Of a DNA stretch of 64,000 nt, positions 16,003 through 43,503 are shown piece by piece. The stretch lies in NCBI RefSeq assembly GCF_017302975.1, contig NZ_JAFIMT010000003.1; one strand, given 5' to 3'. A program made the position numbers and the translations under genes. This DNA is from Corallococcus exiguus. GTDB lineage: Bacteria > Myxococcota > Myxococcia > Myxococcales > Myxococcaceae. The notes below the pieces were generated by a model. That model was not told the origin of the DNA, did no database searches, and saw only the letters and a list, made by a program, of their open reading frames with translations. The number at the start of each line of letters is the position of its first letter. Position 1 is the stretch's first letter.

Positions 16003-16004
16003 GG

Positions 16005-28370: not shown

Positions 28371-28397
28371 CGCGTCCTGCTGAGGGGGGCACGGGCC

Positions 28398-31300
28398 CTA
28401 AAGCTCGTGCTCATAGGCTTTTTCCTGCGCGAGATTGTGGCAGCGATGCTCGGCCGTAGGGAAGCGTCTCCGTACGTCTTCCAGGGTCGCGACCGCATCC
28501 CGTCGGCTGCGGAACTGAACCGCCCGCTGGAACTGCATCATCAGTTGGCTGCAGCGGTGGTCCAGCTCCATTGAAATCTGGGCAATCCGCTCCCGGACGT
28601 CCTCGTAGAGCTCCGGCTTGTCGTCCAGCGCTTCCAGGGTGATCCACGCGGCGCGGTATTCCCGCCACGCCTTGAACAGGTTCTCCGCGCCCACATCCTT
28701 GAGTTCGTAGAAGCGGGCCCCCGCCGTCGCGGCCTCCCGGGCGGAGGTGACCAGCTGATCCGGCGGCGCCTCCGGCACCGGGATGATCTCCAGCCGCAGG
28801 TTCCAGATGCGCCACGGGTCGCGGCCGGGCGGGTTGAGGGCGTTGTCGAAGAGGATCTGGTTGTTGGCGTTGCGCCGCAGGAGGCTGGGCGGGAGGATCT
28901 GCTCCAGCTCACGCTCGGCCGTCTGCGCCGTGTCCGGGGGCACCCAGCCCAGGGAGACGCCGTTGAGGGACAGGTTGACCTCGTCCCGGGCGATGCTGCT
29001 GGCCTGGTAGTGCAGCACCGCCACGGCGCGCGTGGGGGACACGAAGCGGAAGTCGAAGAGCTTGTCGTCGGCGTGGACCCAGCGCACGCCGTCGCCCAGG
29101 CCGAAGGAGTCCGTCACCGGCTCCATGCCCAGCGTGAAGGGTTCGCGGCCCGGGAGCCGGATGGCCGTGGGGGCCGCGAGCGCCACGAGCAGCGTCACCA
29201 CGCCCAGCACGGCCACGCCCGCCAGCGACGCGATGGCGATCCGCTTGGGCAGCGACTGGCGCTTCCAGAAGAGGATGAACCGGCCCTGGAGCGACTTGCC
29301 CAGCTGACGCCGCTGGCGGGCCTTGTCGGCGGCGGACGAGGGCTCGACCTTCGCGACGACCGTCACCGGGCCGTTGGGCACGGGCTGGACGAAGGAGTCC
29401 TCCAGGTCGGCCGGCACGGGCTGGGTGGCATCCCCCTCCCCGTCCGCGGAGGGCACGGGGGCCAGTGGGAACTCGCCCGGCAGCGGGCCGGGGTCCAGGG
29501 TCGGGGCAGGCACGGCGCGGTCCCGGCCGACGAACGTCACCGGCTCCGGCGAAGGCGGCGGGACGGGAGGGCTCCAGGCCGGCGGAGGCGCCACGGGGGC
29601 GGGGGCAACCTGGCCCGTGAAGGTCCCCGAGGCCCGGGTCTCCTCGGGGGCCGCGAAGAGGTCATCGTCCTGGCCGACGAAGGTCGAGGGCTCGCTGGAG
29701 TCGGGCGCGGGGACGGGCACGCTCGCGACGCGCACCGGAGGGGCCACGAGCGGACTGACCGGGGTGATGGGCCGGAGGTCGAGAACGGTCCGCTCCTCGG
29801 GCTCCTCCATCATCGGCGGAGGCAGCGCGGGCGAGGCCGCCTGTGGCGGAGCCGACTCTTCCAGGGGCGGCGCTTCCGGGGTCGCCGGAATCGCCATCAG
29901 CGTGCGCTCCTCGGGCTCATCCAGCTCCGGGAACGGCAGCGCGGGGGGCGGCAACGCGGCGGGCTCGAGCGAGTTCACCGTGGAGATCGCCATCAGCGTG
30001 CGCTCCTCGGGCTCGTCCAGTTCCGGGAGGGGCAGCACGGGAGACAGCGCCGCGGCGGGTGCGTCCGCCGTGGGAATCGCCATCAGCGTGCGCTCCTCGG
30101 GTTCATCCGACACCACCGGGGCCAGGTCCACGGGAGGCGGAACGACGGAAGGCCGAGTCGGAGGCGGCGGAGCCATGAGCCCCGGCGGCGACATCAACGG
30201 CAGTCCGGATGAGGAAGCCGCGGCACTCCGGGCCGCGGGAGCAGCGGACGCGCGCGCGGCGCCAAGCCCCAGCGAGGGACGGTTCAGTGCGGGAGCACCG
30301 ATACCGGGCAGACTCGTGACGCCGTTCCGCTTCGCGGGAGCCGCTGGCTCCACGGGAGCTGGGGCCGCGACCCTCTCCGGCGCGGAGGTCACCGCCGGAA
30401 CAGCCCCGGTCAAGGCAGGAGTTCCGGCCGCGGGAAGCTCGAGCGCGGTGATGTGCGCGGGCTCGGGCGCGGACGACCGGCTCGGTCCCGAGGAACCGAC
30501 CGCGGACAGTCCAGGCCCGGAGGCCCGGACGGAGGCGGAAGGTCCCGGAGCCTTGTTCGCGGCCGGAGCGCTCAGCACCGGGGGGCCCCCAGGAGCCTGG
30601 GCTGGCGCACCCGAGCCCGAAGCGGCAGGCCCCAACACCGGGGGCCCCACGGGAGTCCTGGCGGGCGCGGTCGCTCCCGGCGCCGAAGGTCCCGACACAG
30701 GAGGCGCGCCGGGAACCTTGCCCGAAGCAGCCGACGCGGAGGCCCCCAACACAGGCGGACCCGAAGGAGGCCTGGGAGGAGTCACCGCACCCGGAGCGGA
30801 AGCCCCCGGCACAGGAGCTCCCGGTGCAGGCCGGGCCGGCGCAGCGGATGCCGGCGAGGAAGCTCCCACCACTGGAGCTCCCGGTGCAGGCCGAGCCGGC
30901 GTCGCCGCACCCGGCGCGGAAGCTCCCGACACAGGAACTCCCGGTGCAGGCCGAGCCGGCGCAGCGGATGCCGGCGCGGAAGATCCCAGCACGGGAGTTC
31001 CAGGTGCAGGCCGGGCCGGCGCAGCGGATGCCGGCGAGGCAGCTCCCGCCGCTGGAGTTCCAGGTGCAGGCCGGGCCGGCGCAGCGGATGCCGGCGAGGA
31101 AGCCCCCGGCACAGGAGGCCCGGCGGGAGGCTTGGGCGGAGCCGCCGCACCCGGCGCGGATGCGCTGAGCACAGGCCCCGGAGGAGGCCGGACCGGCGCG
31201 GGGGCACTGACCGCCGGCAGATCCGGAGCGGAGGGCCGCTTCGGTGTGGCGGCCGGCACCGGCATCGCAGGGGTCGCCCCACCCTTCGCCGCGGGCACCG

Positions 31301-31706
31301 CCATTCCCGGGCGCGGCGGAGATACTGGCCGGGCCATGGCCGGCATCGACTGCTGGTAGCTCGTGGGCGCCGCTTCGATTTCCGCGAGCGAGGCCTGCCC
31401 CAAGCCCTGCGGCGACACGTTCGCGTGGGGCGGCGCGAGCACCCGCCGGATGGGCCGGGTGACGTCGTCGTCATCCTCCGGCGGCATCCACACGAAGGTG
31501 AACTCCACCGGCCCCACGGTGATGCGGTCGCCGTCGCGCAGCTGCTTCTCGCCAGCCAGCGGCTGGCCGTTCAGCTGCGTGCCGTTCGCGCTGCCAACGT
31601 CCGCCGCGAAGTAGCGCCCATCCCTCGCCGTGATGCGGGCATGACGCCGGGAGACACCGTGGTCATGCAGCACCAGGTCGTTCTCCGAGGTCCGGCCGAT
31701 CTTCAC
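28398..31706 (-). CDS. Giant FHA-domain protein (1102 aa) with a TM helix and an extensive Pro/Ala/Gly/Ser low-complexity region containing 20-aa tandem repeats
   Basis: The FHA core reads GRTSENDLVLHDHGVSRRHARI...GSANGTQLNG. There is a single TM helix (IAIASLAGVAVLGVVTLLVALAA) and a C-terminal globular part. The first canonical start (GTG 31706) truncates FHA strand 1, and the upstream in-frame sequence has no ATG, GTG or TTG. Confidence 0.75.
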   Translation of the reverse strand: MKIGRTSENDLVLHDHGVSRRHARITARDGRYFAADVGSANGTQLNGQPLAGEKQLRDGDRITVGPVEFTFVWMPPEDDDDVTRPIRRVLAPPHANVSPQGLGQASLAEIEAAPTSYQQSMPAMARPVSPPRPGMAVPAAKGGATPAMPVPAATPKRPSAPDLPAVSAPAPVRPPPGPVLSASAPGAAAPPKPPAGPPVPGASSPASAAPARPAPGTPAAGAASPASAAPARPAPGTPVLGSSAPASAAPARPAPGVPVSGASAPGAATPARPAPGAPVVGASSPASAAPARPAPGAPVPGASAPGAVTPPRPPSGPPVLGASASAASGKVPGAPPVSGPSAPGATAPARTPVGPPVLGPAASGSGAPAQAPGGPPVLSAPAANKAPGPSASVRASGPGLSAVGSSGPSRSSAPEPAHITALELPAAGTPALTGAVPAVTSAPERVAAPAPVEPAAPAKRNGVTSLPGIGAPALNRPSLGLGAARASAAPAARSAAASSSGLPLMSPPGLMAPPPPTRPSVVPPPVDLAPVVSDEPEERTLMAIPTADAPAAALSPVLPLPELDEPEERTLMAISTVNSLEPAALPPPALPFPELDEPEERTLMAIPATPEAPPLEESAPPQAASPALPPPMMEEPEERTVLDLRPITPVSPLVAPPVRVASVPVPAPDSSEPSTFVGQDDDLFAAPEETRASGTFTGQVAPAPVAPPPAWSPPVPPPSPEPVTFVGRDRAVPAPTLDPGPLPGEFPLAPVPSADGEGDATQPVPADLEDSFVQPVPNGPVTVVAKVEPSSAADKARQRRQLGKSLQGRFILFWKRQSLPKRIAIASLAGVAVLGVVTLLVALAAPTAIRLPGREPFTLGMEPVTDSFGLGDGVRWVHADDKLFDFRFVSPTRAVAVLHYQASSIARDEVNLSLNGVSLGWVPPDTAQTAERELEQILPPSLLRRNANNQILFDNALNPPGRDPWRIWNLRLEIIPVPEAPPDQLVTSAREAATAGARFYELKDVGAENLFKAWREYRAAWITLEALDDKPELYEDVRERIAQISMELDHRCSQLMMQFQRAVQFRSRRDAVATLEDVRRRFPTAEHRCHNLAQEKAYEHEL
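30780..31180 (-). repeat. About six tandem copies of a 60-bp coding repeat inside the giant FHA gene
   Basis: Near-identical units gcaggccgggccggcgcagcggatgccggcgaggaagctcccaccactggagctcccggt encode a repeated roughly 20-aa PASAAPARPAPG(A/T)PV(x)GASS motif. Confidence 0.6.
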
Positions 31707-31779: not shown

Positions 31780-32670
31780 CTAGCCCCCGACGTTGCCGAA
31801 CATGAACTGGAACACGATGGGCCCGAAGAGCACCATGAACACCGTCGGGAAGATGCAGGCGATGAGCGGGAAGAGCATCTTCACCGGCGCCTCGCCCGCC
31901 AGCTTCTCCGCGCGCTGCGTGCGGTCGATGCGCATCTGCGTGGACTGGATGCGCAGCACCTTGCCCAGGCTCGTACCCATCTTGTCCGCCTGGATCAGCG
32001 CCGTGACGAACGTCGTCAGCGACGGCAGGTCCACGCGCACGATCATGCTCTTGAGCCCCTCTTCACGCGTCTTGCCCATCTTGAGCTGCTTGAGCACCAG
32101 CTGCAGCTCCTCGCGCAGCGGACCCTGGCGGCCCTTCTCCACCACCTTCGCCAGCGCGCCCGTGAAGTCCATGCCCGCTTCCACCGACAGCGTCAGCAGG
32201 TCCAGGTTGTACGGAAGCGCGCGGCTGATGGCCAGGTGACGGCGCTTCACCTGATCGTTCAACCAGATGAGCGGATAGAACAGGCCCAGCAGCATCACCA
32301 GCAGCGACCAGGCCAGGTTCATGCCCATGCCGTTGACGACGAACAGGCCGGCCAGCAGCGCCAGGAAGGCGCTGATCTCCTGCAGCGCCATGATGTCCTC
32401 GGGCTTGTACTGCGACGGCTCGCCCGCCTTGATCAGCTTGCGGCGCGTCTTGGACTCGTAGCCCGGCCACATGAAGCGCCGGTTCATCGCGCCCAGCTTG
32501 CGGACGGCGACGGAGCCAGCGCCCTTCATGCCGCCCGCGGACTCGTCCCGGACTTCCGTGAGGAAGCGCTCCAGGAGGTTGGAGTACAGGCCGATGCCCA
32601 GGAACGCCACCGCGCCCGCGGTCAGCAGTGCCGAGCCGCCCATCAGCAGAAATGTCAGGACTTCCTGCAC
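31780..32670 (-). CDS. tadC: Tad/Flp pilus assembly inner-membrane platform protein TadC (T2SS-F family)
   Basis: It has the T2SSF domain and TM topology (LALLAGLFVVNGMGM..., LFPLIACIFPTVFMVLFGPIV). It is paired with TadB immediately upstream. Confidence 0.8.
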   Translation of the reverse strand: MQEVLTFLLMGGSALLTAGAVAFLGIGLYSNLLERFLTEVRDESAGGMKGAGSVAVRKLGAMNRRFMWPGYESKTRRKLIKAGEPSQYKPEDIMALQEISAFLALLAGLFVVNGMGMNLAWSLLVMLLGLFYPLIWLNDQVKRRHLAISRALPYNLDLLTLSVEAGMDFTGALAKVVEKGRQGPLREELQLVLKQLKMGKTREEGLKSMIVRVDLPSLTTFVTALIQADKMGTSLGKVLRIQSTQMRIDRTQRAEKLAGEAPVKMLFPLIACIFPTVFMVLFGPIVFQFMFGNVGG

Positions 32671-32683
32671 GGTGCGCCTCGTT

Positions 32684-33529
32684 TCAGATGTCGATGTTGA
32701 CGATGCGCCGGATGATGAGGATGCCCATGATCTCCATGATGGCGATCAGGGTCACCAGGATGTAGCCGAAGATGTGGTTCATCATCGGCTCCATCAGGTC
32801 CGGGCGCATGTAGTTGAGCACCATGCCCAGCACCGCCGGCATGGCCGCGACGATCCACCCCTGCAGCTTGCCCTGGGAGGTCAGCGCGTCGATCTTGCCT
32901 TCCAGACGGAAGCGCTCGCGGATCACCGTGGAGATGGTCTCGAACATCTCCGCCATGTTGCCGCCCAGCTGGCGCGCGATGTTCGTGGACACGACCACCA
33001 GCTCCAGGTCGTCGCTGCCCACGCGCTTGCCCATGTTGACGAGCGCCTCTTCCAGCGGCACGCCCAGCTTCACTTCCTTCACGAAGAGGCCGAACTCCTG
33101 GGACAGGGGCGGCATCGCTTCGCGAGCCACGTGCTCGATGGCCTGGGGGAACGTGAGACCCGCCTTGAACGCGTTGGCCATGGCCTGCAGCGCGTCCACC
33201 AGCTGCACGTTGAACTTCTTGATGCGGCGCTTGCGGTAGTGCTTCACGAGCAGCATCGGCAGGAAGAAGCCGAAGATGGTCGCGAGCACCGCAAGGATGG
33301 GGTTGAAGACGATGTAGCTGAGGATGCCCAGGAGGCACATGCAGGCGATGTTGAGGATCAACATCTGCCGCGCATCGATGAAGAGGAACATGTCGCTCAA
33401 GTCGTTCATCGACTTGGCGACGTACCGCTCCTGGTACTGCTCATACGCCTTTGACAGGACGCTGAAGATCACCAGGCTGAAGAAGAACACCGAGCCGGTG
33501 ACGAGAAGGAGGACGATACCTGCGAGCAT
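32684..33529 (-). CDS. tadB: Tad/Flp pilus assembly inner-membrane platform protein TadB (T2SS-F family)
   Basis: It has T2SSF-family topology and is the platform paralogue of the downstream TadC. Confidence 0.8.
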   Translation of the reverse strand: MLAGIVLLLVTGSVFFFSLVIFSVLSKAYEQYQERYVAKSMNDLSDMFLFIDARQMLILNIACMCLLGILSYIVFNPILAVLATIFGFFLPMLLVKHYRKRRIKKFNVQLVDALQAMANAFKAGLTFPQAIEHVAREAMPPLSQEFGLFVKEVKLGVPLEEALVNMGKRVGSDDLELVVVSTNIARQLGGNMAEMFETISTVIRERFRLEGKIDALTSQGKLQGWIVAAMPAVLGMVLNYMRPDLMEPMMNHIFGYILVTLIAIMEIMGILIIRRIVNIDI

Positions 33530-33607
33530 GGGCGCGAATCCCCGGGGGATGAGGGAGGGGTCGGCAGGGCCGCTTCAGCGTCAAGCGAAGCGGCCCCGCG
33601 CGCAGGA

Positions 33608-34426
33608 CTACGGAGAGCCGGCCGAGGCCTTCTCGCCGCCGCCACTGCCCTTGATGATCTGGATGATCTCCCGGCGCTTCTGCTCCAGCACGCGGGTGCG
33701 CTCACCGGAGAGCAGCGTGCTGATGGTCGCGCGGCCACGCTCCTCGATGAGGTCCACGTCGTCCTCGTTGCGCAGGGACAACGTCAGCTGGCCCAGTTCC
33801 GCCGCCAGCACCAGGATCTCCGCCTCTTCCGGCAGCACCATCAGCGAGACGTTGGAGTACTCGCGCTGGTTCTCCGGGATGAGGTTGATGTTCGTGGTGC
33901 CGGTGATCTTGCCCGTGGCGACCACGATGATGTTCTGCAGCAGCGTCACCGCGACGCTCTCGTCCGTCTGCGGATCGCGGAACGTGCCGATGATGTCCAC
34001 GTGATCGTTGGGGCGGATCCACCCGCCCACGGACGTGGTCTGCTTCGCCTCGATGGTGATGGCGCGCGCCTTCTTCTGCACCTTCGTGGACAGGCGCTCG
34101 GCGGCCTTCGTCGTCTCGAACTGGCTCCAGAGGATGGGGTCGCCGGCCTGCAGCGCCACCAGCACCTTCTGGTTCACGATGTAGTTGGCGGAGTCCGGCT
34201 TCACCACCGACGAGGTGACGAACTGCTCCGGCACGGAGCGCTGGGAGATCATCTCGTACGTGATGACCGAGCCCTCGGGCATGTCCTGGCCCGCCACCAC
34301 CACGGGCACCAGGTTCCACCCGCGGCGCACATCGGATTCCTTCTTCTTGATGGCCGAGTAGGCCACGATGCCCGCGAGCAAACCGAGCACCAGTGCGACG
34401 ACGAGTGGGGTCTTACCCTTCAACAT
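33608..34426 (-). CDS. cpaB: Flp pilus assembly protein CpaB/RcpC (SAF domain)
   Basis: It has an N-terminal TM anchor and a SAF/CpaB-like beta-rich periplasmic domain; its length and position match CpaB. Confidence 0.8.
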   Translation of the reverse strand: MLKGKTPLVVALVLGLLAGIVAYSAIKKKESDVRRGWNLVPVVVAGQDMPEGSVITYEMISQRSVPEQFVTSSVVKPDSANYIVNQKVLVALQAGDPILWSQFETTKAAERLSTKVQKKARAITIEAKQTTSVGGWIRPNDHVDIIGTFRDPQTDESVAVTLLQNIIVVATGKITGTTNINLIPENQREYSNVSLMVLPEEAEILVLAAELGQLTLSLRNEDDVDLIEERGRATISTLLSGERTRVLEQKRREIIQIIKGSGGGEKASAGSP

Positions 34427-34658: not shown

Positions 34659-34961
34659 TCAGGGGAACGGCAGGTTCAGCACGAAGTAGAACGAGTCGTA
34701 ATAGATCTGGTACGCCTCGAGGAACAGGTCGATGACGTTGGTCTGCCGGTCGTCCGTCCAGCGGATCTTCACCGTGGCGCCGACGACGAGCCCGACGATC
34801 AACACCCAGTTGATCATCGAGTACTCCACCATGGCCTGGCCACGGCGGGCCCGGCGCGGGGAGCGCGGCGGCGACTTCCGGGGGCTGTTCACGGGGGGAG
34901 CGTGCACGTCCGACGTCATGTCCCCATTATCCAGGACCCGGGCCCCGGACGCATCGGTCAT
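34659..34961 (-). CDS. Candidate Flp/TadE-type prepilin with an unusually long basic leader
   Basis: It contains a G/XXXXEY-type processing motif (RRGQAMVEY) followed by a hydrophobic helix SMINWVLIVGLVVG. The mature part would be about 58 aa. A stem-loop lies just after the stop. Confidence 0.5.
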   Translation of the reverse strand: MTDASGARVLDNGDMTSDVHAPPVNSPRKSPPRSPRRARRGQAMVEYSMINWVLIVGLVVGATVKIRWTDDRQTNVIDLFLEAYQIYYDSFYFVLNLPFP

Positions 34962-34979
34962 GTGGACTGCCGCCCTCCC

Positions 34980-36431
34980 CTACTGCGCGCGCTGGGCTGG
35001 CGCGGCCCTGTCCGTGTCCGCGGAGGGCGTGACCTGACGCAGGCGGCGCTGGGCCAGCTGCGCCGCGCTGGAGCCGGGGGCCTCGGTGATGATCTGCCCG
35101 CAGATGGCGGCGGCCTCCTGGGTCCGTCCCTGGACGGACTCCGACTCGCAGAGCCGTGAGAGCAGGGCCAGCCGCTCGCTGCCGCTGGCTCCAGCCGCGA
35201 GCGCGGCGCGCAGCAGCTGTGCCTCCCGGGCGCGGTCCCCCTGGTTCGCGGCGGCCTGGGCCTGGGCGGACAGGTCGCGCGCAGTCATCGCCTCCTTGGA
35301 GACGGACTTCTCCATGGACGCAGGCTTCGCGGGCTCCGCGCGGGCGGACTCCTGCTTGGGCTTGGCGTTCGAAAGCCCCGGGGGCGTGGACGGAGGCATC
35401 GCACCGCCGATGGAGCCCACGGCGGAGGGGGCCATGGGCGCGGCCTGGACCACAGGCGCGGAGGCCACGGCGGGAGGCGGCGGAGCCGCGCCCGCTGCCA
35501 CCTCGTCGTCCCCATCCGAGATGAGCCCACGGCCATAGGCCGTCTCACCCATCCGCAGGGAATCGCCCTTCGAGCCCGGGGCCTTGTCGCTGAGTTTGCC
35601 CGCGGAACGCCGCGGCGCGGACTCATCCTTCGCGAGGTAGCCGTCGAGGGCCTGCTCTTCCCTCGGAGGCGGCTCCATCAAGGGTGCCCCGGCCGTCGCC
35701 TGTTCGAGCGCGGCGAACTCTTCCTCCGCGTCCCGGACGGCCTTGGACATCTTCTTCTTGGGAGCCTCGGCGTTCGCGCGGCGCTCCAGCAGCCCGCCAC
35801 CACTGCCCGCGTTCATCCAGTCGGACGGACGGGCCGCGGCGGTGCCCTTGCGCTGCGCCTTGGCCTCCATCTGGTTCCGGTTGATCTCCATCTCGCCCGG
35901 CGCGGGCGCGGCCGCCAGTGCGTCCGAGGCACCCTCGGGCACGTCCACTTCCATGGTCGCGCTTGACGGCGCGGGGGCCACGGCGCTCGGGGCGCTCTTT
36001 TCCCGCGTCTGGGATTCCTGCTTCGCCGCCACCATCGCCGGGCTGGGGGCGCGCTGAGACAGGTTCGGCGACAGGTCCAGGTTCTCGCTCACCGTCAACG
36101 TCAGGACGCCGAAGGTGCCCACCGTTGCCAGGCCCACCGCGGGCAGCAGGAAGCGGCGCCAGCGCGAGGGCTTCGGCTCGGGGCCGGCGGCGGCGCGGCG
36201 CGCGGACTGCTGCGCGTACGCGAGCAGCGACTCCAGGCCCGCGTCCGGCGCGGGCTCCGACGACAGCTGCGCCATGGTCGTGCGCACGCCGCGGATGTCC
36301 GCCAGCGCCTTCGTGCAGCGCGCACAGCCCTGGACGTGCTGCTCCAGCACATGGGCCTCCGACGCGGGCAGTTCGCCGTAGGCGAAGTCGAGGAGCCGGT
36401 CCTCGTGCGCGTGGGCATTCTGGGCATTCAT
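34980..36431 (-). CDS. Membrane anti-sigma factor (zinc-finger type) with a Pro/Ala-rich periplasmic region
   Basis: It has an N-terminal HxxxCxxC anti-sigma motif (HVQGCARCTKAL) and one TM helix. Its start overlaps the stop of the upstream ECF sigma gene (ATGA). Confidence 0.7.
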   Translation of the reverse strand: MNAQNAHAHEDRLLDFAYGELPASEAHVLEQHVQGCARCTKALADIRGVRTTMAQLSSEPAPDAGLESLLAYAQQSARRAAAGPEPKPSRWRRFLLPAVGLATVGTFGVLTLTVSENLDLSPNLSQRAPSPAMVAAKQESQTREKSAPSAVAPAPSSATMEVDVPEGASDALAAAPAPGEMEINRNQMEAKAQRKGTAAARPSDWMNAGSGGGLLERRANAEAPKKKMSKAVRDAEEEFAALEQATAGAPLMEPPPREEQALDGYLAKDESAPRRSAGKLSDKAPGSKGDSLRMGETAYGRGLISDGDDEVAAGAAPPPPAVASAPVVQAAPMAPSAVGSIGGAMPPSTPPGLSNAKPKQESARAEPAKPASMEKSVSKEAMTARDLSAQAQAAANQGDRAREAQLLRAALAAGASGSERLALLSRLCESESVQGRTQEAAAICGQIITEAPGSSAAQLAQRRLRQVTPSADTDRAAPAQRAQ

Positions 36432-37075
36432 CCCGCCACCGTCCTTCCATCCTCCGACAGGTCGCCGTCCACGCCCAGCTCACCCAGGCGGCGGCGCAGG
36501 CCCTCCAACGCGTAGCGCATGCGGCTCTTCACCGTGTTCTCGGACACGCCCGTCACCTCGGCGATCTCCTTGAACGGGATGCCGCTGTACTCGCGCAACA
36601 CGAACACCTCGCGCTGCTCCTCCGGCAGGGCGGACAGGGCCCGCTCCAGCAGGGGCCGGAGGCGGGCGTTGTGCGCGCCGCGCTCCGGGCTGGCCCCGGC
36701 ATCCGGCAGCCCCTCGCCCAGCGGACGTCCCTCGTCGCCGTCGGCACCCGCCGAGGGGGCTTCCAGGGACGTCGTCTGGCGGTAGCTCTCTTTGCGCGTG
36801 CTGTCCACGCAGAGGTTCCTCGCGATGGTGTACAGCCAGGTCGTGAACCGGGCCTTGGGCTCGTATTCCCGGGCGCTGCGGACCACCTTGAGCCAGGTCT
36901 CCTGCAGCACGTCCTCCGCCCGCGCCCTATGGCCTACGAAGCGCAGGATGAAGTTGAACACCGGCGCGCGGTGCTTGCGCACCAACGCATCGAACGCACG
37001 CGCGTTTCCCGCCTGGAAGGCGAGCATCAGCTGCTCGTCTGAGGTTTCGGGTGCCAAACTTCCCCCAGTGCCCAT
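36428..37075 (-). CDS. ECF (sigma-70 family) RNA polymerase sigma factor
   Basis: It has region 2 (LQETWLKVVR...FTTWLYTIARN) and region 4 (EQREVFVLREYSGIPFKEIAEVTGVSENTVKSRMRYA). The start is uncertain (37075, 37027 or 37108). Confidence 0.8.
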   Translation of the reverse strand: MGTGGSLAPETSDEQLMLAFQAGNARAFDALVRKHRAPVFNFILRFVGHRARAEDVLQETWLKVVRSAREYEPKARFTTWLYTIARNLCVDSTRKESYRQTTSLEAPSAGADGDEGRPLGEGLPDAGASPERGAHNARLRPLLERALSALPEEQREVFVLREYSGIPFKEIAEVTGVSENTVKSRMRYALEGLRRRLGELGVDGDLSEDGRTVAG

Positions 37076-37139
37076 GAAGCCACGGGTGCCATCCCCTTCA
37101 CCGCCCACGGCCTGTAACGGACAGCCGTGCGCGAAAGGT

Positions 37140-37553
37140 CTATTCCGGCCGTGGCCGCCGGTAAGTGGCGAGAATGACAGGGACCGCCACCCCTGTCACC
37201 AGAAGTGCCTGCGCAAGTAATACCGCCGGCAGCGGGCGCTGCACATGCACGTACAGCGAGCGGCCGAGCCCCACTCCCAACAGGATGCCCGTCAGCGTAC
37301 GTACCGCGTTGGAACCCGAGGCGGGCCGGAAGCGTCCCACCGCCCAGTCCACGAGCGCGGGCAGCGTGAGTCCCAGCACCACCGGCACGTCCCACTCCCA
37401 CTGGAGCGGCGCCTTCAGCGCGAACAGCGCGAGGAACACGCCCGCGAGCACCGGGTACGTACCCAGGCACCGCGCGCACACGCGCACGCCCGCGAGCACG
37501 TACGTGCGGTTGTACTCATCCGGGTGATGATGGCTGAGCCAGAACACCGGCAC
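37140..37553 (-). CDS. DUF2085-family membrane protein
   Basis: It has [10 protein letters not shown]...[10 protein letters not shown] (a Cys-rich DUF2085 signature) followed by TM helices. The start was trimmed to avoid a 170-nt overlap with the upstream ABC ATPase. Confidence 0.55.
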
Positions 37554-38567
37554 CTCCTCCGGACGTGGAAACAGCGGGCCCGTCCTGCACGTCGCGCGAA
37601 TCCCCTTCGGCCAGGAAGCAAGCCGCGGCGTGGCCTCCGCCCAGGGGATACAGCGGCGGTGACTCGCGGCGGCAGCGCTCCATCGCATGCGGGCAGCGCG
37701 GATGGAACGCGCAACCGGTCGGCGGCGACAGGGGCGAAGGCGGCTCTCCCGGCAGCAGCAGCCGCGCGCGGGGACGCTCCGGATCCGGCACCGGCACCGC
37801 GGACAGCAGCGCCTGCGTGTACGGATGGCGAGGCCCGGCGTACAGCGCCCGGGACGGCGCCACCTCCACGATGCGGCCCAGGTACATCACCGCCACGCGC
37901 GTCGACACGTACTCCACAATCTTCAGGTCGTGCGCGATGAAGACGTAGGTGAGCCCGCGCTCGCGCTGCAGGTCCACCAGCAGGTTGACGATCTGCGCCT
38001 GGATGGAGACGTCCAGCGCGCTGATGGGCTCATCCGCCACCACCAGCTCCGGACGCAACGCGATGGCACGTGCAATGCCGATGCGTTGACGCTGGCCGCC
38101 GGAGAACTCGTGCGGGTAGCGCTGGCGCGCCTCGCGGGGCAACCCCATGGCGTCGAGCAGCGCCAGCACCTCGTCGTCGCGCGCCTTGCCCTTCGCGAGG
38201 CCGTGGATGGCGAAGGGCTCCGCGAGGATGTCCCCCACCGTCATGCGCGGGTTGAGCGACGCGTACGGATCCTGGAAGACGAGCTGCATCTGGCGGCGCA
38301 GCGGCCGTAATTCGCGCTGCGACAGGCCGGTCAGCTCGCGCCCCGCCACGCGGATGGAGCCGGAGGTCGGGTCGATGAGCCGCAGCACCGCACGCCCCAG
38401 GGTGCTCTTGCCGCAGCCACTCTCCCCTACCAGGCCCAGCGTCTCCCCACGGGCGACATCGAAGGACACGCCGTCCACCGCGCGCACCGTGCCGCGCGTG
38501 CGCCCCAACAAGCCGCCCTTCACCGGGAAGTGCACCTTCAGGTCGCGCACCTGGACCAGCGGTTCGC

Positions 38568-38571
<4 letters not shown>
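37516..38571 (-). CDS. ABC transporter ATP-binding protein, peptide/nickel (OppF/DppF) type
   Basis: Walker [10 protein letters not shown], signature [14 protein letters not shown] and Walker B LVVADEP are present, with the oligopeptide-type C-terminal extension. The start is at MSEPLVQV. Confidence 0.8.
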
Positions 38572-39595
<1,024 letters not shown>

Positions 39596-39599
<4 letters not shown>

Positions 39600-40609
39600 T
39601 TCTGGGCCAGCTCCTCCAGGAACTCCGCCTCCTGGATGAGCCCCTTGCGGATGAGCAGGCGGATGAGGCTCGCGACCATGCGCGCGGGCTTCACCTTCTC
39701 CGTGTCCAGGCTGGCCTCCTCGCCGCGCGAGATGCGGTCGATGTCGTCCAGCACCGCCAGGTCCTCCTCGGAGAAGTCCGGCTTGGGCGTGAGCGCCACG
39801 GACGGCTTCACGCCCTGCGCGGCGCCACCGAAGAGCACCACCGGCACGCGCGGCTTGCTCGGATCCTCCGGCTCCGCGGGGGGCGGAGGCGGAGGCGGCG
39901 GACGGGCAGCAGCGGGAGGAGGCGGCGGACGCGGGGCCTTGGGGACCTTGGGACGGGGCGTGGAGCCCAGGATGTCCTCCAGCACCTCCGCGCCGTCGGC
40001 GGACGCGTCGCCCTCGTGCGGCGGAGGCGGCGGCAGGTCCCAGTCCAGCGTCGGCGGCGCGGGTGGGCGCGGCGGCGGAGGCGGGCGCGCGGCCGCGGGA
40101 GGGGGCGGCGGCAGGATGTCCGGCGAATCGTCCTCGTCCATGTCCATCGGTTCAGCCTCCACGATGTCCAGGGGCTCGCCCCGGCCGCGCGCGAGCGCCT
40201 GCTCCAAGTCGTCCGGCGCTACGACGAACACCTTGAGCGGTTTGCGCAGCTGGAAGCGCAGCTCGTCCACCAGCATCAGGTTGCCCGGGTCTTCCACCGC
40301 GACGTGGATCTTCTCGCTGCGGCCGTCCTGCTCCGCCGCGAAGAGGAGCACCCGGTGCTCGGTCTGGAAGTCCATGGACACCAGCGAGGACACCGCATGC
40401 GGGATGTACTCGGGGATCTCCACGAACGGCAGCTCGTGCTGCGCCGCGAGTGCCCGCGCGATGTCCCGGCCCGTGCACAGGCCCATGGACACCAGCACCT
40501 CACCCAGCTTGCGGCCCTGGCCGCGCCGTCCGGACGCGAGGGCCTGCTTCACCTGCTCGTCCGTCACCACTCCGGCCTGGACGAGGAGTTCACCAATCTT
40601 CTTGCGCAT
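39596..40609 (-). CDS. Protein with a GspE/T2SSE N-terminal (MshEN-like) domain, a Pro-rich linker and a short conserved C-terminal helix; no ATPase domain
   Basis: The N-terminus [20 protein letters not shown]...[32 protein letters not shown] matches the T2SSE_N fold. The middle is PPPPP-rich. The C-terminus [20 protein letters not shown] is shared with its neighbour. Confidence 0.65.
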
Positions 40610-40618
40610 GGCCGGGGG

Positions 40619-41368
40619 CTACCGCTTGACCTTGGCGAGGTATTCCTCGCGGGAGAAAACGCCCTTCTCGATGAGCAGCTCCACCATGGCCTTCAGCGCC
40701 GCGACCTCCTTGCGCTGGACGTCCTCCACGCTCTTGAGCAGCTCCGCGGGGCTGCCAGAGGCCGCGCGAGGCGGCTCCGGCGGGGGGGCCTGGCGAGGGG
40801 GCGGCGCGGCGGCGGGCTTGGGGGACATGGCGACGGCGGCGGCCGGGTCCAGGTCCTTGAGGTTCTTCACGACGGTGCGGCCCTGCGCGTCCACCACCTT
40901 GAAGTTGGTGTCCGCGTCCTCCAACTCCGCCGTCTCCTCGTAGAGGCGCGCGAACGCCCGCGCCACGGAGGTGCGCCCGGCCACGTTCGCCACGATGCGG
41001 CACTTGGACAGGGCCCGCAGCTCGTCCAGCACCCGGACGTTGAGCGGGTCCGACATGGCGACCACCAGCGTCTTGCCGTCGTCGCGCAGCTGCAGCGGGA
41101 CGACAGAGAAGTCGCGGGCCGTCTGCGCCGGAATCTTGGCCTTCACGTGCGGCGGCACCATCTGCACGGAGTCCAGGTTCACCGCCGGCATGCCCAGCTG
41201 CTTCGACAAGGCGCGCACGAGGATGTCCTCGGAGACGAGGTTCATCCGGACGAGGATCTCGCCCAGCTTCCCGCCCCACTTGGCCTGCTCGGCGAGCGCC
41301 GCCTTGAGCTGGCTCTCCTGCAGGACGTTCGCCTTGATCAGCAGTTCTCCAAGCTTGATCTGTGCCAT
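40619..41368 (-). CDS. Second protein with only a GspE/T2SSE N-terminal (MshEN-like) domain; paralogue of the adjacent gene
   Basis: Its domains read LGELLIKANVLQESQLKAAL...KLGEILVRMNLVSEDILVRALSKQLGMPAVNL and the C-terminus VELLIEKGVFSREEYLAKV. It has no Walker motifs. Confidence 0.65.
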   Translation of the reverse strand: MAQIKLGELLIKANVLQESQLKAALAEQAKWGGKLGEILVRMNLVSEDILVRALSKQLGMPAVNLDSVQMVPPHVKAKIPAQTARDFSVVPLQLRDDGKTLVVAMSDPLNVRVLDELRALSKCRIVANVAGRTSVARAFARLYEETAELEDADTNFKVVDAQGRTVVKNLKDLDPAAAVAMSPKPAAAPPPRQAPPPEPPRAASGSPAELLKSVEDVQRKEVAALKAMVELLIEKGVFSREEYLAKVKR

Positions 41369-41427
41369 GTCGTGCGCGCCATAGTACCCGGTTTGCGCCG
41401 GGACGCTGCCTTTCGACGCCTGGAAGC

Positions 41428-42258
41428 TCAGGAACCCGGCGCGGGGGGCGGCTGGGACACCGGCTCCCCCGAGCGGACCTGCTGGCCCCGCGCGTCGACG
41501 TCCACCACCTTCGCCCCCTGGGGCGCGCCCAGTTCGTAGAGCGTCAGGTCCGGGCGGCCGTTGAGGCGGATGTCCGTGTACTTCAGGTCCAGCTTCGTGT
41601 CCGCCGTGGCGGCGATGAGGTGCACCTTGCCCGGGAAGAACTGGTCGCCCCGCTGCTCGAAGTCCTCGAACGCCAGGTCGTAGCCCGGCACGCCCCGGAC
41701 CTCGCTCTTCACCACGCGCAGGTGCTTGGGATCCACGCGCAGTGTCTGCGTCGCGGGCCCCCGCTGGAGCTTGAGCACGTACACCCGCTCCTTCTCGTCC
41801 AGCTCCAGGGTCATGGACTCCGGCGGCAGCAGGGGGACCTGCCCCAGCATCACCGCCACCAGCTCCTCGCTCGGCAGGACGACAGGCAGGAAGCGGGACA
41901 CGTTCTCCGCGCTCGCCGGGCCCTGGAGGTACGTGTTCTCCCCTGCCTGGTAGACGCCAAAGCGTTCGCCGTCGGAGACGAGCGAGGCCACCGGGCGGTT
42001 GAAGAAGTCGTAGGTCTCCAGGTGGATGAGGGCCGGGCGGGTGATGGAGAGGTACGTGGAGAGCGTTCCGCTGCCCTGGGGCGAGTCCACGTGCAGCTTG
42101 GCGTCACCCTCCAGGTTCACCACCTTCGCCTGCCGCTCGCGCACGTGCTGGTAGAGCGTCTGGGCGTCCTCGATGCGGCCCTCCGGACCGAACTCGAGGC
42201 GTTTGGGGCAGGCCGAACAGAGGAGGACCAGGAAGATTGCGGCGGCTGCGCGGTTCAT
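41428..42258 (-). CDS. Outer-membrane-type lipoprotein (DUF4292/LolB-like fold?)
   Basis: It has a signal peptide with the lipobox LCSAC; this is the first gene of the long minus-strand cluster. Confidence 0.6.
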   Translation of the reverse strand: MNRAAAAIFLVLLCSACPKRLEFGPEGRIEDAQTLYQHVRERQAKVVNLEGDAKLHVDSPQGSGTLSTYLSITRPALIHLETYDFFNRPVASLVSDGERFGVYQAGENTYLQGPASAENVSRFLPVVLPSEELVAVMLGQVPLLPPESMTLELDEKERVYVLKLQRGPATQTLRVDPKHLRVVKSEVRGVPGYDLAFEDFEQRGDQFFPGKVHLIAATADTKLDLKYTDIRLNGRPDLTLYELGAPQGAKVVDVDARGQQVRSGEPVSQPPPAPGS

Positions 42259-43032: not shown

Positions 43033-43047
43033 GGAGACACGCCCACC

Positions 43048-43503
43048 ATGGCCATGGGAAAGACGCCCGGCTCGGGCGACGACGAGGTGGAGGGCGCGGG
43101 CTTCGCGGAGATCAACATCACGCCGCTGACGGACGTGATGCTCGTGCTGCTCATCATCTTCATGGTGACCAGCTCGGTCATCACCCAGCAGGGACCGGGC
43201 GGCGGCGCGAAGGCGGGCCTCAAGGTGAACCTGCCCAAGGGCGGCGCCGCGGACGTCACCGCGCGCACCACGGACCTGTCCGTGGCGGTGCTGGCGGACG
43301 GCCGCTTCGTGCTCGCGGGCAACGTCGTCGCGGAGGCCGAGCTGAAGCAGGCCTTCGACAACGCGAAGAACCAGAACCCCGACACCGTGGTGATTGTGCA
43401 GGCGGACGAAGGCGTCCCCCACGGCACCGTGGTGCAGGTGATGGAGCTGGCGAAGAAGGCCGGCCTCGCGCAGCTGGCCATCGGCGTGCGCGAAGGCAAC
43501 TAG
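43048..43503 (+). CDS. ExbD/TolR-family protein
   Basis: It has INITPLTDVMLVLLIIFMV and a conserved TM Asp; its 151-aa length is typical. Confidence 0.85.
   Translation: MAMGKTPGSGDDEVEGAGFAEINITPLTDVMLVLLIIFMVTSSVITQQGPGGGAKAGLKVNLPKGGAADVTARTTDLSVAVLADGRFVLAGNVVAEAELKQAFDNAKNQNPDTVVIVQADEGVPHGTVVQVMELAKKAGLAQLAIGVREGN

What the first reader, a model, noticed from the sequence alone, without database searches (positions are those of the whole stretch)
39596..41368. Two paralogous proteins with only a GspE N-terminal domain, possible c-di-GMP-responsive adaptors for a missing secretion ATPase
Both proteins have a T2SSE_N/MshEN-type N-terminal domain, a disordered Pro-rich linker and a shared about 25-aa C-terminal helix. 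The two helices are ...[20 protein letters not shown] and ...VELLIEKGVFSREEYLAKV. They have no Walker motifs. In canonical systems this N-domain is fused to the GspE/MshE ATPase and, in MshE, binds c-di-GMP. Here it is separated from any ATPase and duplicated. A REC-HD-GYP phosphodiesterase (48056-49177) and a degenerate-GGDEF hybrid kinase (16005-18518) lie in the same neighbourhood, which suggests c-di-GMP input.
Basis: inference. Interest (0 to 1): 0.6.

Follow-up and report, generated by a model that had tools for sequence, protein, structure and literature searches.

The report
Paired c-di-GMP sensor proteins beside Kil/Tad genes
Two neighbouring genes encode small proteins that are just the c-di-GMP-sensing head of a pilus/secretion motor, without the motor; the domain content was already catalogued in Myxococcus, but this pair turns out to be an ancient unit that sits next to the Tad-like "Kil" prey-killing machine in distant relatives.

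Summary
ORFs 40619-41368(-) (P2, 249 aa) and 39596-40609(-) (P1, 337 aa) each consist of a complete MshEN domain, a disordered Pro/Ala-rich linker and a conserved C-terminal helix-turn-helix. Neither has a Walker motif.

They are orthologues of M. xanthus MXAN_4667 and MXAN_4666. Wang et al. 2016 and Kuzmich et al. 2022 already list both as MshEN proteins. I found no functional study.

- The short-plus-long tandem pair recurs in lineages only 30-40% identical to the window's P2.
- The c-di-GMP contact residues are conserved across the P2-type family. P1 is partly degenerate.
- The C-terminal hairpin resembles a third, degenerate MshEN half-motif.
- In two deeply diverged clades the pair lies with DUF2085 next to Kil-type Tad genes (CpaB, TadB, TadC, two FHA proteins, or TadG-like).
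- In this lineage the pair is also joined to two orphan Opp/Dpp-type ABC ATPases. Basal relatives have the pair between the permease and ATPase genes of a complete transporter.

Best reading: paired in-trans c-di-GMP receptors or adaptors of a Kil-associated envelope module. The direct partner is unresolved among the Kil motor or platform, the ABC ATPases and the ECF sigma pair. This is a new variant of a known kind and of moderate interest.

The parts
40619..41368 (-). P2: a 249-aa stand-alone MshEN protein, orthologue of M. xanthus MXAN_4667 and first gene of the operon
   Evidence: ORF. Pfam and NCBIfam matches. AF2 model and Foldseek match to 5HTL. Orthology rests on the MXAN_4667 N-terminal sequence in the Wang 2016 supplement and on homologue P0020 from M. 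xanthus DK1622 at 85% identity.
41198..41356 (-). P2 53-residue c-di-GMP-binding region: motif I at residues 5-28, a 5-residue spacer AKWGG, and motif II at residues 34-57
   Evidence: Read from the sequence. NF053729 match covering residues 5-57. Key positions K/L/G/L/L/Q are present in both motifs; the turn Gly is replaced by Asn at residues 14 and 43. Conservation across 89 family representatives.
40928..41197 (-). P2 MshEN_C (T2SSE_N1-like) alpha/beta subdomain, residues 58-147
   Evidence: PF05157 match covering residues 58-147. AF2 strands and helices at pLDDT above 90.
40754..40921 (-). P2 disordered Ala/Pro-rich linker, residues about 150-205
   Evidence: Block-mean pLDDT 32-66 over residues 141-210 and below 50 at 172-205. 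Variable in length and sequence among orthologues. 30% Pro over residues 170-206.
40625..40750 (-). P2 conserved C-terminal helix-turn-helix, residues 207-248, sequence ...ALKAMVELLIEKGVFSREEYLAKVKR
   Evidence: AF2 helices 207-234 and 240-248 at pLDDT 81-92. Nearly invariant across genera. Present in about 88 of the top 150 representatives of 50%-identity clusters. hhalign against MshEN motif I gives 78.6% probability, in register.
39596..40609 (-). P1: a 337-aa stand-alone MshEN protein, orthologue of MXAN_4666 and second gene of the operon
   Evidence: ORF. Pfam and NCBIfam matches. AF2 model. Orthology. Located 9 nt after the P2 stop.
40439..40600 (-). P1 c-di-GMP motif region: motif I at residues 4-27 ending in G27 instead of Gln, a 6-residue spacer, and motif II at residues 34-57, which is canonical except for C45
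   Evidence: Read from the sequence. Statistics over 90 P1 family members.
40184..40435 (-). P1 MshEN_C subdomain, residues 59-142
   Evidence: PF05157 match covering residues 59-141. AF2 pLDDT 95-97.
39770..40183 (-). P1 Pro-rich disordered linker, residues 143-280, with [14 protein letters not shown] occurring twice
   Evidence: No secondary structure in the model; block-mean pLDDT 49-80 over residues 141-280. 34% Pro over residues 145-280, with the repeat at residues 167 and 228.
39602..39769 (-). P1 conserved C-terminal region: helix 281-294 followed by the hairpin 308-321 plus 327-336, sequence ...[27 protein letters not shown]
   Evidence: AF2 model. Invariant columns in the 90-sequence alignment. 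The same P1-type tail (IRLLLRKGVI..EFLEELK) occurs in distant lineages.
38568..39599 (-). Opp/Dpp-type ABC ATPase (ABC_tran plus oligo_HPY). Its GTG start overlaps the P1 stop as GTGA.
   Evidence: Pfam. Sequence of the junction. Synteny in every locus long enough to show it.
37516..38571 (-). Second Opp/Dpp-type ABC ATPase. No permease or binding-protein gene occurs in the window.
   Evidence: Pfam. Synteny. tblastn finds no SBP5 or permease in the window.
37140..37688 (-). DUF2085 membrane protein. These are the maximal ORF coordinates; the true start is probably near residues ..VFWLSHH, as in the homologues.
   Evidence: Pfam. Follows the pair in Myxococcaceae and in L094, L099, L102, L103, L116 and L161.
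36428..37108 (-). ECF sigma factor
   Evidence: Pfam. An ECF sigma gene also follows the pair in L081, L083, L089, L090 and L158.
34980..36431 (-). Anti-sigma factor with a zf-HC2 domain, counterpart of MXAN_4661, the last gene of Kil cluster 2 as defined by Seef et al.
   Evidence: Pfam. Seef supplement.
34659..34961 (-). Flp-type prepilin (KilK-like) with the motif G/QAMVEYSMI
   Evidence: Translation.
31780..34426 (-). Kil cluster 2 core: CpaB/KilB (33608-34426), TadB/KilG (32684-33529) and TadC/KilH (31780-32670)
   Evidence: Pfam RcpC/SAF and T2SSF matches. Seef annotation.
26622..31706 (-). Two FHA-domain proteins, counterparts of MXAN_4649 (28398-31706) and the FHA-TPR protein MXAN_4648 (26622-28370)
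   Evidence: Pfam. Seef supplement.
41428..42258 (-). DUF4292 lipoprotein, 59 nt upstream of P2. It is also directly upstream of the pair in L081, L089 and L090.
   Evidence: Pfam. tblastn and clustering.

Best explanation
P2 and P1 are an ancient tandem pair of stand-alone MshEN-domain proteins, orthologues of M. xanthus MXAN_4667 and MXAN_4666.

Proposed mechanism:
- Each protein binds c-di-GMP in its N-terminal four-helix bundle. This is inferred from sequence and fold. It is strong for P2 and weaker for P1.
- Each carries a conserved C-terminal helical hairpin on a flexible Pro/Ala-rich tether of very variable length. The hairpin looks like a third, ligand-incompetent MshEN half-motif. It most likely serves as a docking or dimerisation module, possibly pairing P1 with P2. 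This step is inference.
- Together with the DUF2085 membrane protein, the pair forms a regulatory module that travels with the Kil-type Tad (type IVc) apparatus. It would supply in trans the c-di-GMP input that PilB/MshE-type motors carry in cis. The Kil motor KilF has an FHA domain, not an MshEN domain, at its N-terminus and is encoded elsewhere.
- In the Myxococcaceae lineage the same pair is additionally co-transcribed and translationally coupled with two orphan Opp/Dpp-type ABC ATPases.

Shown here: domain identity, fold, motif conservation, gene order and its conservation.
Inferred: c-di-GMP binding, the role of the hairpin, and the Kil machine as the functional target.
For: Domain, motif and fold.

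Ligand-contact residues:
- Across 89 representatives of the P2-type family, position 1 is R/K, position 2 is L, position 3 is G, positions 17 and 21 are L, and position 24 is Q in 89/89 (motif I) and 84/89 (motif II) sequences.
- Lys or Leu at position 1 gives nanomolar affinity in PilF GSPII-B.

Conservation:
- The folded parts of P2 are almost invariant from Corallococcus to Archangium, Stigmatella and Hyalangium, while the linker is free to vary.
- The tandem short-plus-long pair recurs in lineages whose P2-type protein is only 30-41% identical to the window's.

Gene order:
- The window has P2-P1-ABC-ABC-DUF2085-ECF-antisigma-Flp-CpaB-TadB-TadC-FHA-FHA on one strand. This matches M. xanthus Kil cluster 2.
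- The order P2-P1-ABC-ABC-DUF2085-ECF-antisigma is kept in every genome locus long enough to show it.
- L102, L103 and L116 have P2-P1-DUF2085-(83 aa)-CpaB-TadB-TadC-FHA-FHA/TPR with nothing inserted.
- L094 and L099 have PilZ-P2-P1-DUF2085, followed further downstream by a TadE/G-like protein.

Open question this addresses: Seef et al. state that the signal that assembles Kil at prey contacts is unknown and may be encoded near the clusters.
Against: - No experiment exists on these proteins in the searched literature.
- Synteny with Tad genes is seen in two deep clades only. Other lineages carrying the pair show no Tad genes within the available flanks (L081-L083, L089/L090, L152/L155).
- In M. 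xanthus the pair has its own strong vegetative transcription start and is mildly down-regulated in starvation (log2FC -0.4 to -0.8). The kil genes are reported as starvation-induced.
- Operon structure and translational coupling point to the ABC ATPases as the closest partners in this lineage.
- P1 deviates from the binding consensus: motif I position 24 is Gly and the spacer is 6-7 residues.
- P2 has Asn at both turn positions, outside even the relaxed published motif.
- The AF2 output gives no contacts, so neither docking of the hairpin nor P1-P2 pairing could be examined.
Confidence: 0.4

Rival explanations
1. The pair regulates the adjacent ABC ATPases. P2 and P1 would be c-di-GMP-responsive accessory subunits of an Opp/Dpp-type ABC system. 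In basal relatives this is a complete peptide/nickel-type importer. In Corallococcus and Myxococcus only the two ATPases and DUF2085 remain. The neighbouring Kil genes would be unrelated in function.
For: - The P1 stop overlaps the ATPase start codon as GTGA.
- M. xanthus Operon 24 is MXAN_4667-4666-4665-4664-4663, with one strong transcription start.
- The ATPases follow the pair in every Myxococcaceae/Archangiaceae locus long enough to show it and in L161.
- In 22 loci SBP_bac_5 and/or permease genes lie directly upstream of P2 (18 have SBP_bac_5 plus both permeases; in L057, L064 and L076 the SBP was not found). The pair therefore sits between the permease and ATPase genes.
- The orphan ATPases stay 76-84% identical in genera that lack the permeases. 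This suggests a retained function tied to their neighbours.
Against: - The pair persists without any ABC gene in L094, L099, L102, L103, L116, L152 and L155. An ABC partner is therefore not ancestral to the pair.
- In L081 and L083 the ABC ATPase is of a different type, 266 aa without oligo_HPY.
- I did not find any MshEN-regulated ABC transporter in the literature searched.
- Without permeases, the window's ATPases cannot be a conventional importer.
Confidence: 0.25
2. The pair feeds c-di-GMP status into the adjacent ECF sigma/anti-sigma pair. It would act on transcription, for example of the downstream pilin and kil genes, rather than on a machine directly.
For: - An ECF sigma gene follows the pair in Myxococcaceae, in L081, L083, L089, L090 and L158, and in L161.
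- In the window the ECF/anti-sigma genes lie immediately before the Flp pilin gene.
- From general knowledge, c-di-GMP-dependent control of an anti-sigma factor has precedent in Streptomyces (RsiG with sigma-WhiG).
Against: - ECF genes are absent from the L102/L103/L116 and L094/L099 loci, where the pair abuts DUF2085 and Tad genes.
- The anti-sigma factor here is a zf-HC2 membrane type with no known link to MshEN.
- MXAN_4662 has its own transcription start, outside the MshEN operon.
Confidence: 0.1
3. One or both proteins no longer bind c-di-GMP. They would act only as protein-protein scaffolds through the T2SSE_N1-like subdomain and the C-terminal hairpin, like the non-binding MshEN-like domains of XpsE, PilF GSPII-A or FrgA.
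For: - Neither protein matches even the relaxed published motif exactly. P2 has Asn at both turn positions. P1 has G27 at position 24 of motif I, C45 at position 12 of motif II, and a 6-residue spacer.
- Documented non-binders exist with few substitutions.
Against: - All 12 ligand-contact positions are intact in P2 and are conserved family-wide.
- Both proteins score well above the NF053729 cutoff.
- The deviating turn position does not contact the ligand, and Asn is a common turn residue (general knowledge).
- Wang et al. list MXAN_4666 and MXAN_4667 in a separate column from FrgA, PulE, MXAN_1145 and MXAN_4627. I read that other column as the degenerate group, but I did not see the column header.
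Confidence: 0.15

Closest known systems
M. xanthus MXAN_4667 and MXAN_4666, annotated 'general secretion pathway protein E, N-terminal domain protein'
   Same: They are direct orthologues. MXAN_4667 (homologue P0020) is 85% identical to P2. P1-type homologues in Myxococcus are 55-62% identical. The order and operon context match. Both are listed among 22 (Wang 2016) or 17 (Kuzmich 2022) MshEN proteins of M. xanthus.
   Different: There is nothing beyond species divergence. In the papers I could search, those proteins are only catalogued, with RNA-seq and transcription-start data. No binding, mutant or partner data were found.
MshEN domains of V. cholerae MshE (5HTL) and T. thermophilus PilF GSPII-B (8PDK)
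   Same: The two-subdomain fold is the same, with TM 0.78-0.84. Both have two tandem 24-residue motifs with the same contact residues. Lys at position 1 matches the nanomolar binder GSPII-B.
   Different: Those domains are fused to a PilB/GspE ATPase. Here there is no ATPase. Instead there is a disordered tether and a conserved C-terminal hairpin. The proteins come as a conserved pair, and P1 has a longer spacer.
Xanthomonas PilB(N-terminal domain)-PilZ-FimX complex (7LKO)
   Same: It resembles how I propose this pair works. An MshEN-like domain acts as the docking site through which c-di-GMP information reaches a type IV filament motor by way of separate proteins. The structural match has TM 0.79. 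A PilZ-domain gene lies directly upstream of the pair in L094, L099 and L116.
   Different: There the MshEN-like domain is part of PilB and does not itself bind c-di-GMP. Here the domain is free-standing and keeps the binding residues. The system concerned is Tad-like, not T4aP.
Kil system of M. xanthus, the Tad-like prey-killing apparatus (Seef et al. 2021)
   Same: The window carries cluster 2 (FHA-TPR, FHA, KilH, KilG, KilB, Flp, zf-HC2) on the same strand, 6 genes downstream of the pair.
   Different: The pair lies outside the published cluster boundaries (MXAN_4648-4661). It was not deleted or discussed there, and no GspE, DUF2085 or PilZ term appears in that paper's supplement.
FrgA (MXAN_1130), a stand-alone MshEN-like protein of M. 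xanthus needed for aggregation
   Same: It is a small protein built on an MshEN-like N-terminus without an ATPase.
   Different: FrgA's motifs are degenerate (no RLG, for example), and Wang et al. list it apart from MXAN_4666 and MXAN_4667. I did not test whether it has the C-terminal hairpin.

Membership tests
MshEN-domain c-di-GMP receptors (Wang et al. 2016) | Significant match to the MshEN/T2SSE_N profile (PF05157) | tested here: met
   47.4 bits for P1 and 55.6 bits for P2, against a cutoff of 23.1.
MshEN-domain c-di-GMP receptors (Wang et al. 2016) | The 53-residue N-terminal binding domain, made of two 24-residue motifs joined by a 5-residue spacer | tested here: met
   NF053729 scores 61.7 and 64.8 bits, against a cutoff of 38. 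P2 has motifs at 5-28 and 34-57 with the 5-residue spacer AKWGG. P1 has motifs at 4-27 and 34-57 with a 6-residue spacer, and the spacer is 6-7 residues throughout its family. The feature is therefore met for P2 and only approximately for P1.
MshEN-domain c-di-GMP receptors (Wang et al. 2016) | Ligand-contact residues (R/K/L)1, L2, G3, L17, L21 and Q24 in both motifs | tested here: met
   P2 has K-L-G-L-L-Q in both motifs. P1 has K-I-G-V-L-G in motif I, where Q24 is replaced by Gly, and K-L-G-I-L-Q in motif II. The positions are conserved family-wide. The extended consensus allowing K or L at position 1 comes. The turn Gly at position 10 is Asn in both P2 motifs.
MshEN-domain c-di-GMP receptors (Wang et al. 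2016) | Fold of a four-helix bundle plus an alpha/beta T2SSE_N1 subdomain | tested here: met
   AF2 pLDDT of roughly 90 or more over the domain in both proteins. Foldseek matches 5HTL at TM 0.84 and E = 3.8e-10.
MshEN-domain c-di-GMP receptors (Wang et al. 2016) | Measured specific c-di-GMP binding | not testable with these tools
   This needs DRaCALA, ITC or DSF on purified protein. No published measurement was found.
GspE/PilB/MshE/CpaF secretion ATPases | A C-terminal T2SSE ATPase domain with Walker A and B motifs | tested here: not met
   No T2SSE Pfam match. No Walker A in either ORF. TIGR02538 and TIGR02533 match only the N-terminal part, about 140-150 residues, far below their cutoffs.
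Kil (Tad-like) apparatus components | Conserved genomic association with the kil cluster 2 genes | tested here: met
   The genes lie on the same strand as the cluster in the window. In L102, L103 and L116 the pair is separated from CpaB-TadB-TadC-FHA-FHA only by DUF2085 and an 83-aa ORF. In L094 and L099 the pair lies near a TadG-like gene. The association was not seen in five other lineages within the available flanks.
Kil (Tad-like) apparatus components | Required for contact-dependent killing, or recruited to prey contact sites | not testable with these tools
   MXAN_4666 and MXAN_4667 were not among the genes deleted by Seef et al..
Opp/Dpp-type ABC transporter operon members | Encoded within the operon, between the permease and ATPase genes | tested here: met
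   L065 has SBP_bac_5, two BPD_transp_1 permeases, P2, P1 and two ABC_tran+oligo_HPY genes in that order. 22 loci have transporter genes directly upstream of P2, 18 of them with SBP_bac_5 plus both permeases. In the window only the two ATPases remain.
SHOCT domain (PF09851), considered for the C-terminal hairpin | Match to the Pfam profile | tested here: not met
   No SHOCT match even at E <= 10 for the isolated C-terminal peptides. The resemblance was from memory only.

The most novel reading that the evidence does not exclude
The MshEN pair, with DUF2085, is the missing cytoplasmic sensor of the Kil prey-killing machine. It would be an in-trans c-di-GMP receptor module whose tethered C-terminal hairpins recruit or gate the FHA-fused Tad ATPase KilF, or the KilG/KilH platform, at prey-contact sites. 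This would be the first case of MshEN-type c-di-GMP control delivered in trans to a Tad (type IVc) motor.
Probability: 0.25. Interest if true: 0.75.

Novelty: new variant of a known kind. Interest (0 to 1): 0.52.

Why it matters
How the Kil machine is told to assemble at a prey contact is an open question. How c-di-GMP reaches Tad-type motors, which lack the MshEN domain of PilB and MshE, is also unclear. A conserved pair of free-standing MshEN receptors next to Kil-type Tad genes gives a concrete and cheap experiment in a tractable model: delete MXAN_4666 and MXAN_4667, measure c-di-GMP binding, and image KilF.

Separately, the family defines a widespread, unnamed C-terminal module. It occurs in about 88 of the top 150 representatives of 50%-identity clusters. 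The family also includes a curious case of ABC ATPases kept after their permeases were lost.

If the pair proves unrelated to Kil, it is still an uncharacterised, very strongly conserved c-di-GMP receptor candidate. It is one of about 20 MshEN proteins in Myxococcus, nearly all of unknown role.

Tried and rejected
- SHOCT identity for the C-terminal hairpin: no Pfam match.
The narrower alignment returned only Myxococcaceae and Archangiaceae among the 80 loci kept, out of 254 relatives. The taxonomic breadth in cultured genomes is therefore unknown.
- Third homologue search, with the diverse profile: it again listed mostly the same clade.
- Cluster look-up for distant representatives: no organism names, all metagenomic. 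The distant lineages remain unnamed.
- afdb50 fold search: the library was unavailable.
- Literature searches for MXAN_4662 to MXAN_4669 and for the RS locus tags: no relevant paper.
- Searches combining MshEN with Tad pilus, and Kil system with c-di-GMP: no paper linking the two.
- Search of the Seef et al. supplements for GspE, DUF2085 and PilZ: no occurrences.
- Recent tandem duplication: rejected. The paralogues are 28% identical, and both types recur in distant lineages.
- "No ATPase nearby": rejected, since two ABC ATPase genes follow directly.
- Hairpin docking on the N-domain, and P1-P2 pairing: not examinable, because the structure tool returns no coordinates and only takes single chains.
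Full report
**1. The observation**

The window is about 70% GC. Its closest match is Corallococcus coralloides KYC2213, at 99% protein identity for P2. Their GC3 values of 0.96 and 0.91 are typical of real genes here.

- Both match Pfam MshEN, at E = 5.2e-15 and 1.9e-12.
- Both match the NCBIfam 53-residue 'c-di-GMP_motif' domain, at 64.8 and 61.7 bits against a cutoff of 38.
- They are 28% identical over the N-terminal 190 residues or so.
- Neither has a Walker A motif. The only P-loops in the whole window belong to ABC ATPases.
- AF2 models (mean pLDDT 78.8 and 77.9) show the same layout in both. There is a four-helix MshEN_N bundle, an alpha/beta MshEN_C subdomain, a disordered linker and a confidently predicted C-terminal helix-turn-helix.
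- The P2 linker covers residues 150-205. The P1 linker covers 143-280, is 34% Pro and contains [14 protein letters not shown] twice.
- The P2 model superposes on MshE bound to c-di-GMP (5HTL, TM 0.84, rmsd 2.3 A) and on PilF GSPII-B bound to c-di-GMP. Sequence search of the PDB agrees.

The one refinement is that the 'shared helix' is a hairpin.

**2. The binding site**

P2 has the six contact residues in both motifs (K-L-G ... L ... L ... Q) and the canonical 5-residue spacer. The only deviation is Asn instead of the turn Gly at residues 14 and 43.

Lys at position 1 is not a defect. In PilF GSPII-B it contributes to a 6 nM affinity, and the published consensus has been extended to (R/K/L)LG....

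Across 89 representatives of the P2-type family the contact positions are almost invariant. Q24 is present in 89/89 and 84/89 sequences, and G3 in 86/89 and 89/89.

P1 is less canonical. Motif I ends in Gly here, and across its family that position is Q in 38, K in 24, R in 21 and G in 6 sequences. The spacer is 6-7 residues. Motif II is canonical. Distant P1-type proteins have Q24 and a 5-residue spacer.

I therefore rate c-di-GMP binding as likely for P2 and uncertain for P1. Neither can be tested here.

**3. The C-terminal module**

The last 45 residues or so of P2 (...VEEVQRKEVAALKAMVELLIEKGVFSREEYLAKVKR) are nearly invariant from Corallococcus to Archangium, Stigmatella and Hyalangium. 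So are the first 65 residues. The linker drifts freely in between.

An exhaustive HMMER search of 1.84 billion cluster representatives found 127 clusters at E <= 1e-30. About 88 of the best 150 share the whole architecture, including this tail. Pfam has no model for the tail.

Its hydrophobic pattern and its Gly turn are in register with an MshEN 24-residue half-motif, but it lacks R1, G3 and Q24.
- hhalign of the tail against motif I gives 78.6% probability, E = 1.7e-5.
- The same comparison against motif II gives 32%.
- The control, motif I against motif II, gives 97.6%.

I read the tail as a degenerate third half-motif. A lone helical hairpin of this kind would be expected to pair with another hairpin. 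This is inference only.

**4. What was already known**

The Wang et al. 2016 supplement prints the N-termini of MXAN_4666 (MRKIGELLVEAGVV...) and MXAN_4667 (MAQIKLGELLIKANVLQES...) and lists both among the MshEN proteins of M. xanthus. They appear apart from FrgA, PulE, MXAN_1145 and MXAN_4627. These are the orthologues of P1 and P2.

Kuzmich et al. 2022 list both among 17 MshEN proteins.
- They map one strong vegetative transcription start 5 nt upstream of MXAN_4667.
- They define an operon MXAN_4667-4666-4665-4664-4663.
- They find mild down-regulation in development.

The window has a TACTAT box 10 nt upstream of the P2 ATG, which fits such a start.

I found no paper that mentions these locus tags in its main text, and none that links free MshEN proteins to Tad pili or Kil.

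**5. The neighbourhood**

All of the following lie on the minus strand:
- a DUF4292 lipoprotein
- P2
- P1
- an ABC ATPase with an oligo_HPY domain, whose start overlaps the P1 stop as GTGA
- a second ABC ATPase
- a DUF2085 membrane protein
- an ECF sigma factor
- a zf-HC2 anti-sigma factor
- an Flp-type prepilin
- CpaB
- TadB
- TadC
- an FHA protein
- an FHA-TPR protein

From the anti-sigma factor onward this is Kil cluster 2 of Seef et al. (MXAN_4661 back to MXAN_4648). The Kil ATPase KilF, which is FHA-fused, the secretin and the peptidase are at another locus in M. xanthus. No secretion-type ATPase is present in this window.

**6. Comparative genomics**

*Genome loci.* In 80 genome loci from Myxococcaceae and Archangiaceae, the order P2-P1-ABC-ABC-DUF2085-ECF-antisigma is kept wherever the contig allows. 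CpaB-TadB-TadC follows at a variable distance.

*A complete transporter in basal relatives.* In 22 of the more divergent loci (P2 57-68% identical), SBP_bac_5 and/or permease genes lie directly upstream of P2. Eighteen have SBP_bac_5 plus both permeases. The pair therefore sits inside a complete Opp/Dpp-type importer operon. The window and its nearer relatives have lost the binding protein and permeases but kept the ATPases.

*Metagenome loci.* A metagenome scan with a distant subfamily recovered the same short-plus-long tandem pair in lineages 30-41% identical to P2.
- L102, L103 and L116: P2-P1-DUF2085-(83 aa)-CpaB-TadB-TadC-FHA-FHA/TPR, with no ABC or ECF genes.
- L094 and L099: PilZ-P2-P1-DUF2085, followed further downstream by a TadE/G-like protein.
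- L081-L083: REC-GGDEF, an OmpA-like protein, DUF4292, P2, P1, a different ABC ATPase and ECF.
- L089 and L090: DUF4292-P2-P1-ECF.
- L152 and L155 (GC 0.41-0.45): the pair beside CsgG-like lipoprotein genes.
- L161: divergent T3SS genes, then P2, a 1729-aa P1, ABC, ABC, DUF2085 and ECF.
- Single-copy relatives sit next to Ser/Thr kinases in L110 and L117.

The pair itself is therefore the stable unit. DUF2085, ECF, Tad genes, DUF4292 and ABC genes recur around it in different combinations. Adjacency to Tad genes is seen in two deeply separated clades.

**7. Interpretation**

The domain architecture and residue conservation make a c-di-GMP receptor the most economical reading. The tether-plus-hairpin design suggests an adaptor.

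Kil-type Tad genes recur as neighbours across a divergence in which intervening genes were gained and lost.

In this lineage, however, the tightest physical and transcriptional link is to two ABC ATPases. Expression in M. xanthus also does not follow the kil genes.

I therefore give the Kil-adaptor model 0.4. The rivals are ABC regulation at 0.25, ECF signalling at 0.1 and non-binding scaffold at 0.15.

The HD-GYP gene (counterpart of MXAN_4675) and the kinase at 16005-18518 are real but distant. The kinase matches SgmT (MXAN_4640), a known c-di-GMP receptor, in domain order and position. They add little.

**8. Verdict**

- The domain-level content is already catalogued for the M. xanthus orthologues.
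- The functional idea is partly supported and is sharpened by the new synteny evidence.
- This is a new variant of a known kind: free-standing, paired MshEN receptors with a conserved extra hairpin, associated with a Tad-like machine.
- Interest is moderate. It would be higher if the Kil link is confirmed.

Noticed in passing
window 34427-34979, compared with M. xanthus MXAN_4653-4660: Between CpaB/KilB and the anti-sigma gene the window has only one gene, an Flp-type prepilin with the motif G/QAMVEYSMI. M. xanthus has eight genes there, including the minor pilins KilL and KilM and a TadG-like gene. Corallococcus either lacks them or keeps them elsewhere.
   Followed up: partly
window 37516-39599; loci L055, L057, L058, L060, L062-L068, L070-L080: The window has two Opp/Dpp-type ABC ATPases with no permease or binding-protein gene anywhere in its 64 kb. 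More basal relatives have the complete transporter around the MshEN pair. The orphan ATPases remain 76-84% identical across genera, so they are still under selection.
   Followed up: yes
window 14113-18518: The GAF-HisKA-HATPase-REC kinase with a GGDEF fragment (16005-18518) matches M. xanthus SgmT (MXAN_4640), a published c-di-GMP receptor kinase, in domain order and position. The TPR protein beside it (14113-16170) corresponds in position to MXAN_4639, which Seef et al. list among Kil-related genes.
   Followed up: partly
window 39770-40183 (P1 linker); L161 10574-15763; L081 10911-13508: The P1-type linker is extremely variable in length. Total protein length runs from 337 aa here to 865 aa in L081 and 1729 aa in L161, while both ends stay conserved. 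In the window it contains the exact repeat [14 protein letters not shown] twice.
   Followed up: partly
L094 1875-2603; L099 8807-9514; L116 9250-9900: A PilZ-domain protein is encoded directly upstream of the MshEN pair in three distant loci. That places a second type of c-di-GMP receptor in the same module.
   Followed up: partly
L161 3-5626: Type III secretion export-gate and ring genes (FliP, FliQ-like, FliO, SepQ/FliN, YscJ) lie divergently upstream of the MshEN pair in a Myxococcales MAG. This is notable because a T3SS is reported to act with Kil in prey lysis.
   Followed up: no
L110 10004-13061; L117 9992-12701: Single-copy members of the family, without a P1-type partner, are immediately followed by a Ser/Thr protein kinase with PEGA or CarboxypepD_reg domains. 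This is a different context from the tandem pair.
   Followed up: no
L081 3964-5052; L082; L083: A REC-GGDEF diguanylate cyclase and an OmpA-family protein lie upstream of the DUF4292-P2-P1 unit in one distant lineage.
   Followed up: no
window 42301-43503: An ExbB/ExbD (MotA/TolQ-type) pair is transcribed divergently from the DUF4292-P2 unit. It keeps that position in all Myxococcaceae and Archangiaceae loci long enough to show it. Another M. xanthus MshEN gene, MXAN_6863, appears in the Wang et al. list; from memory it lies next to the aglRQS motor genes, which I did not check.
   Followed up: no
window 18917-20524 (+): A 535-aa ORF with GC3 of 0.95 has no Pfam match.
   Followed up: no
window 41369-41427: A TACTAT (-10-like) hexamer lies 10 nt upstream of the P2 start codon, with no obvious Shine-Dalgarno sequence. 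This is consistent with the near-leaderless transcription start mapped 5 nt upstream of MXAN_4667.
   Followed up: partly
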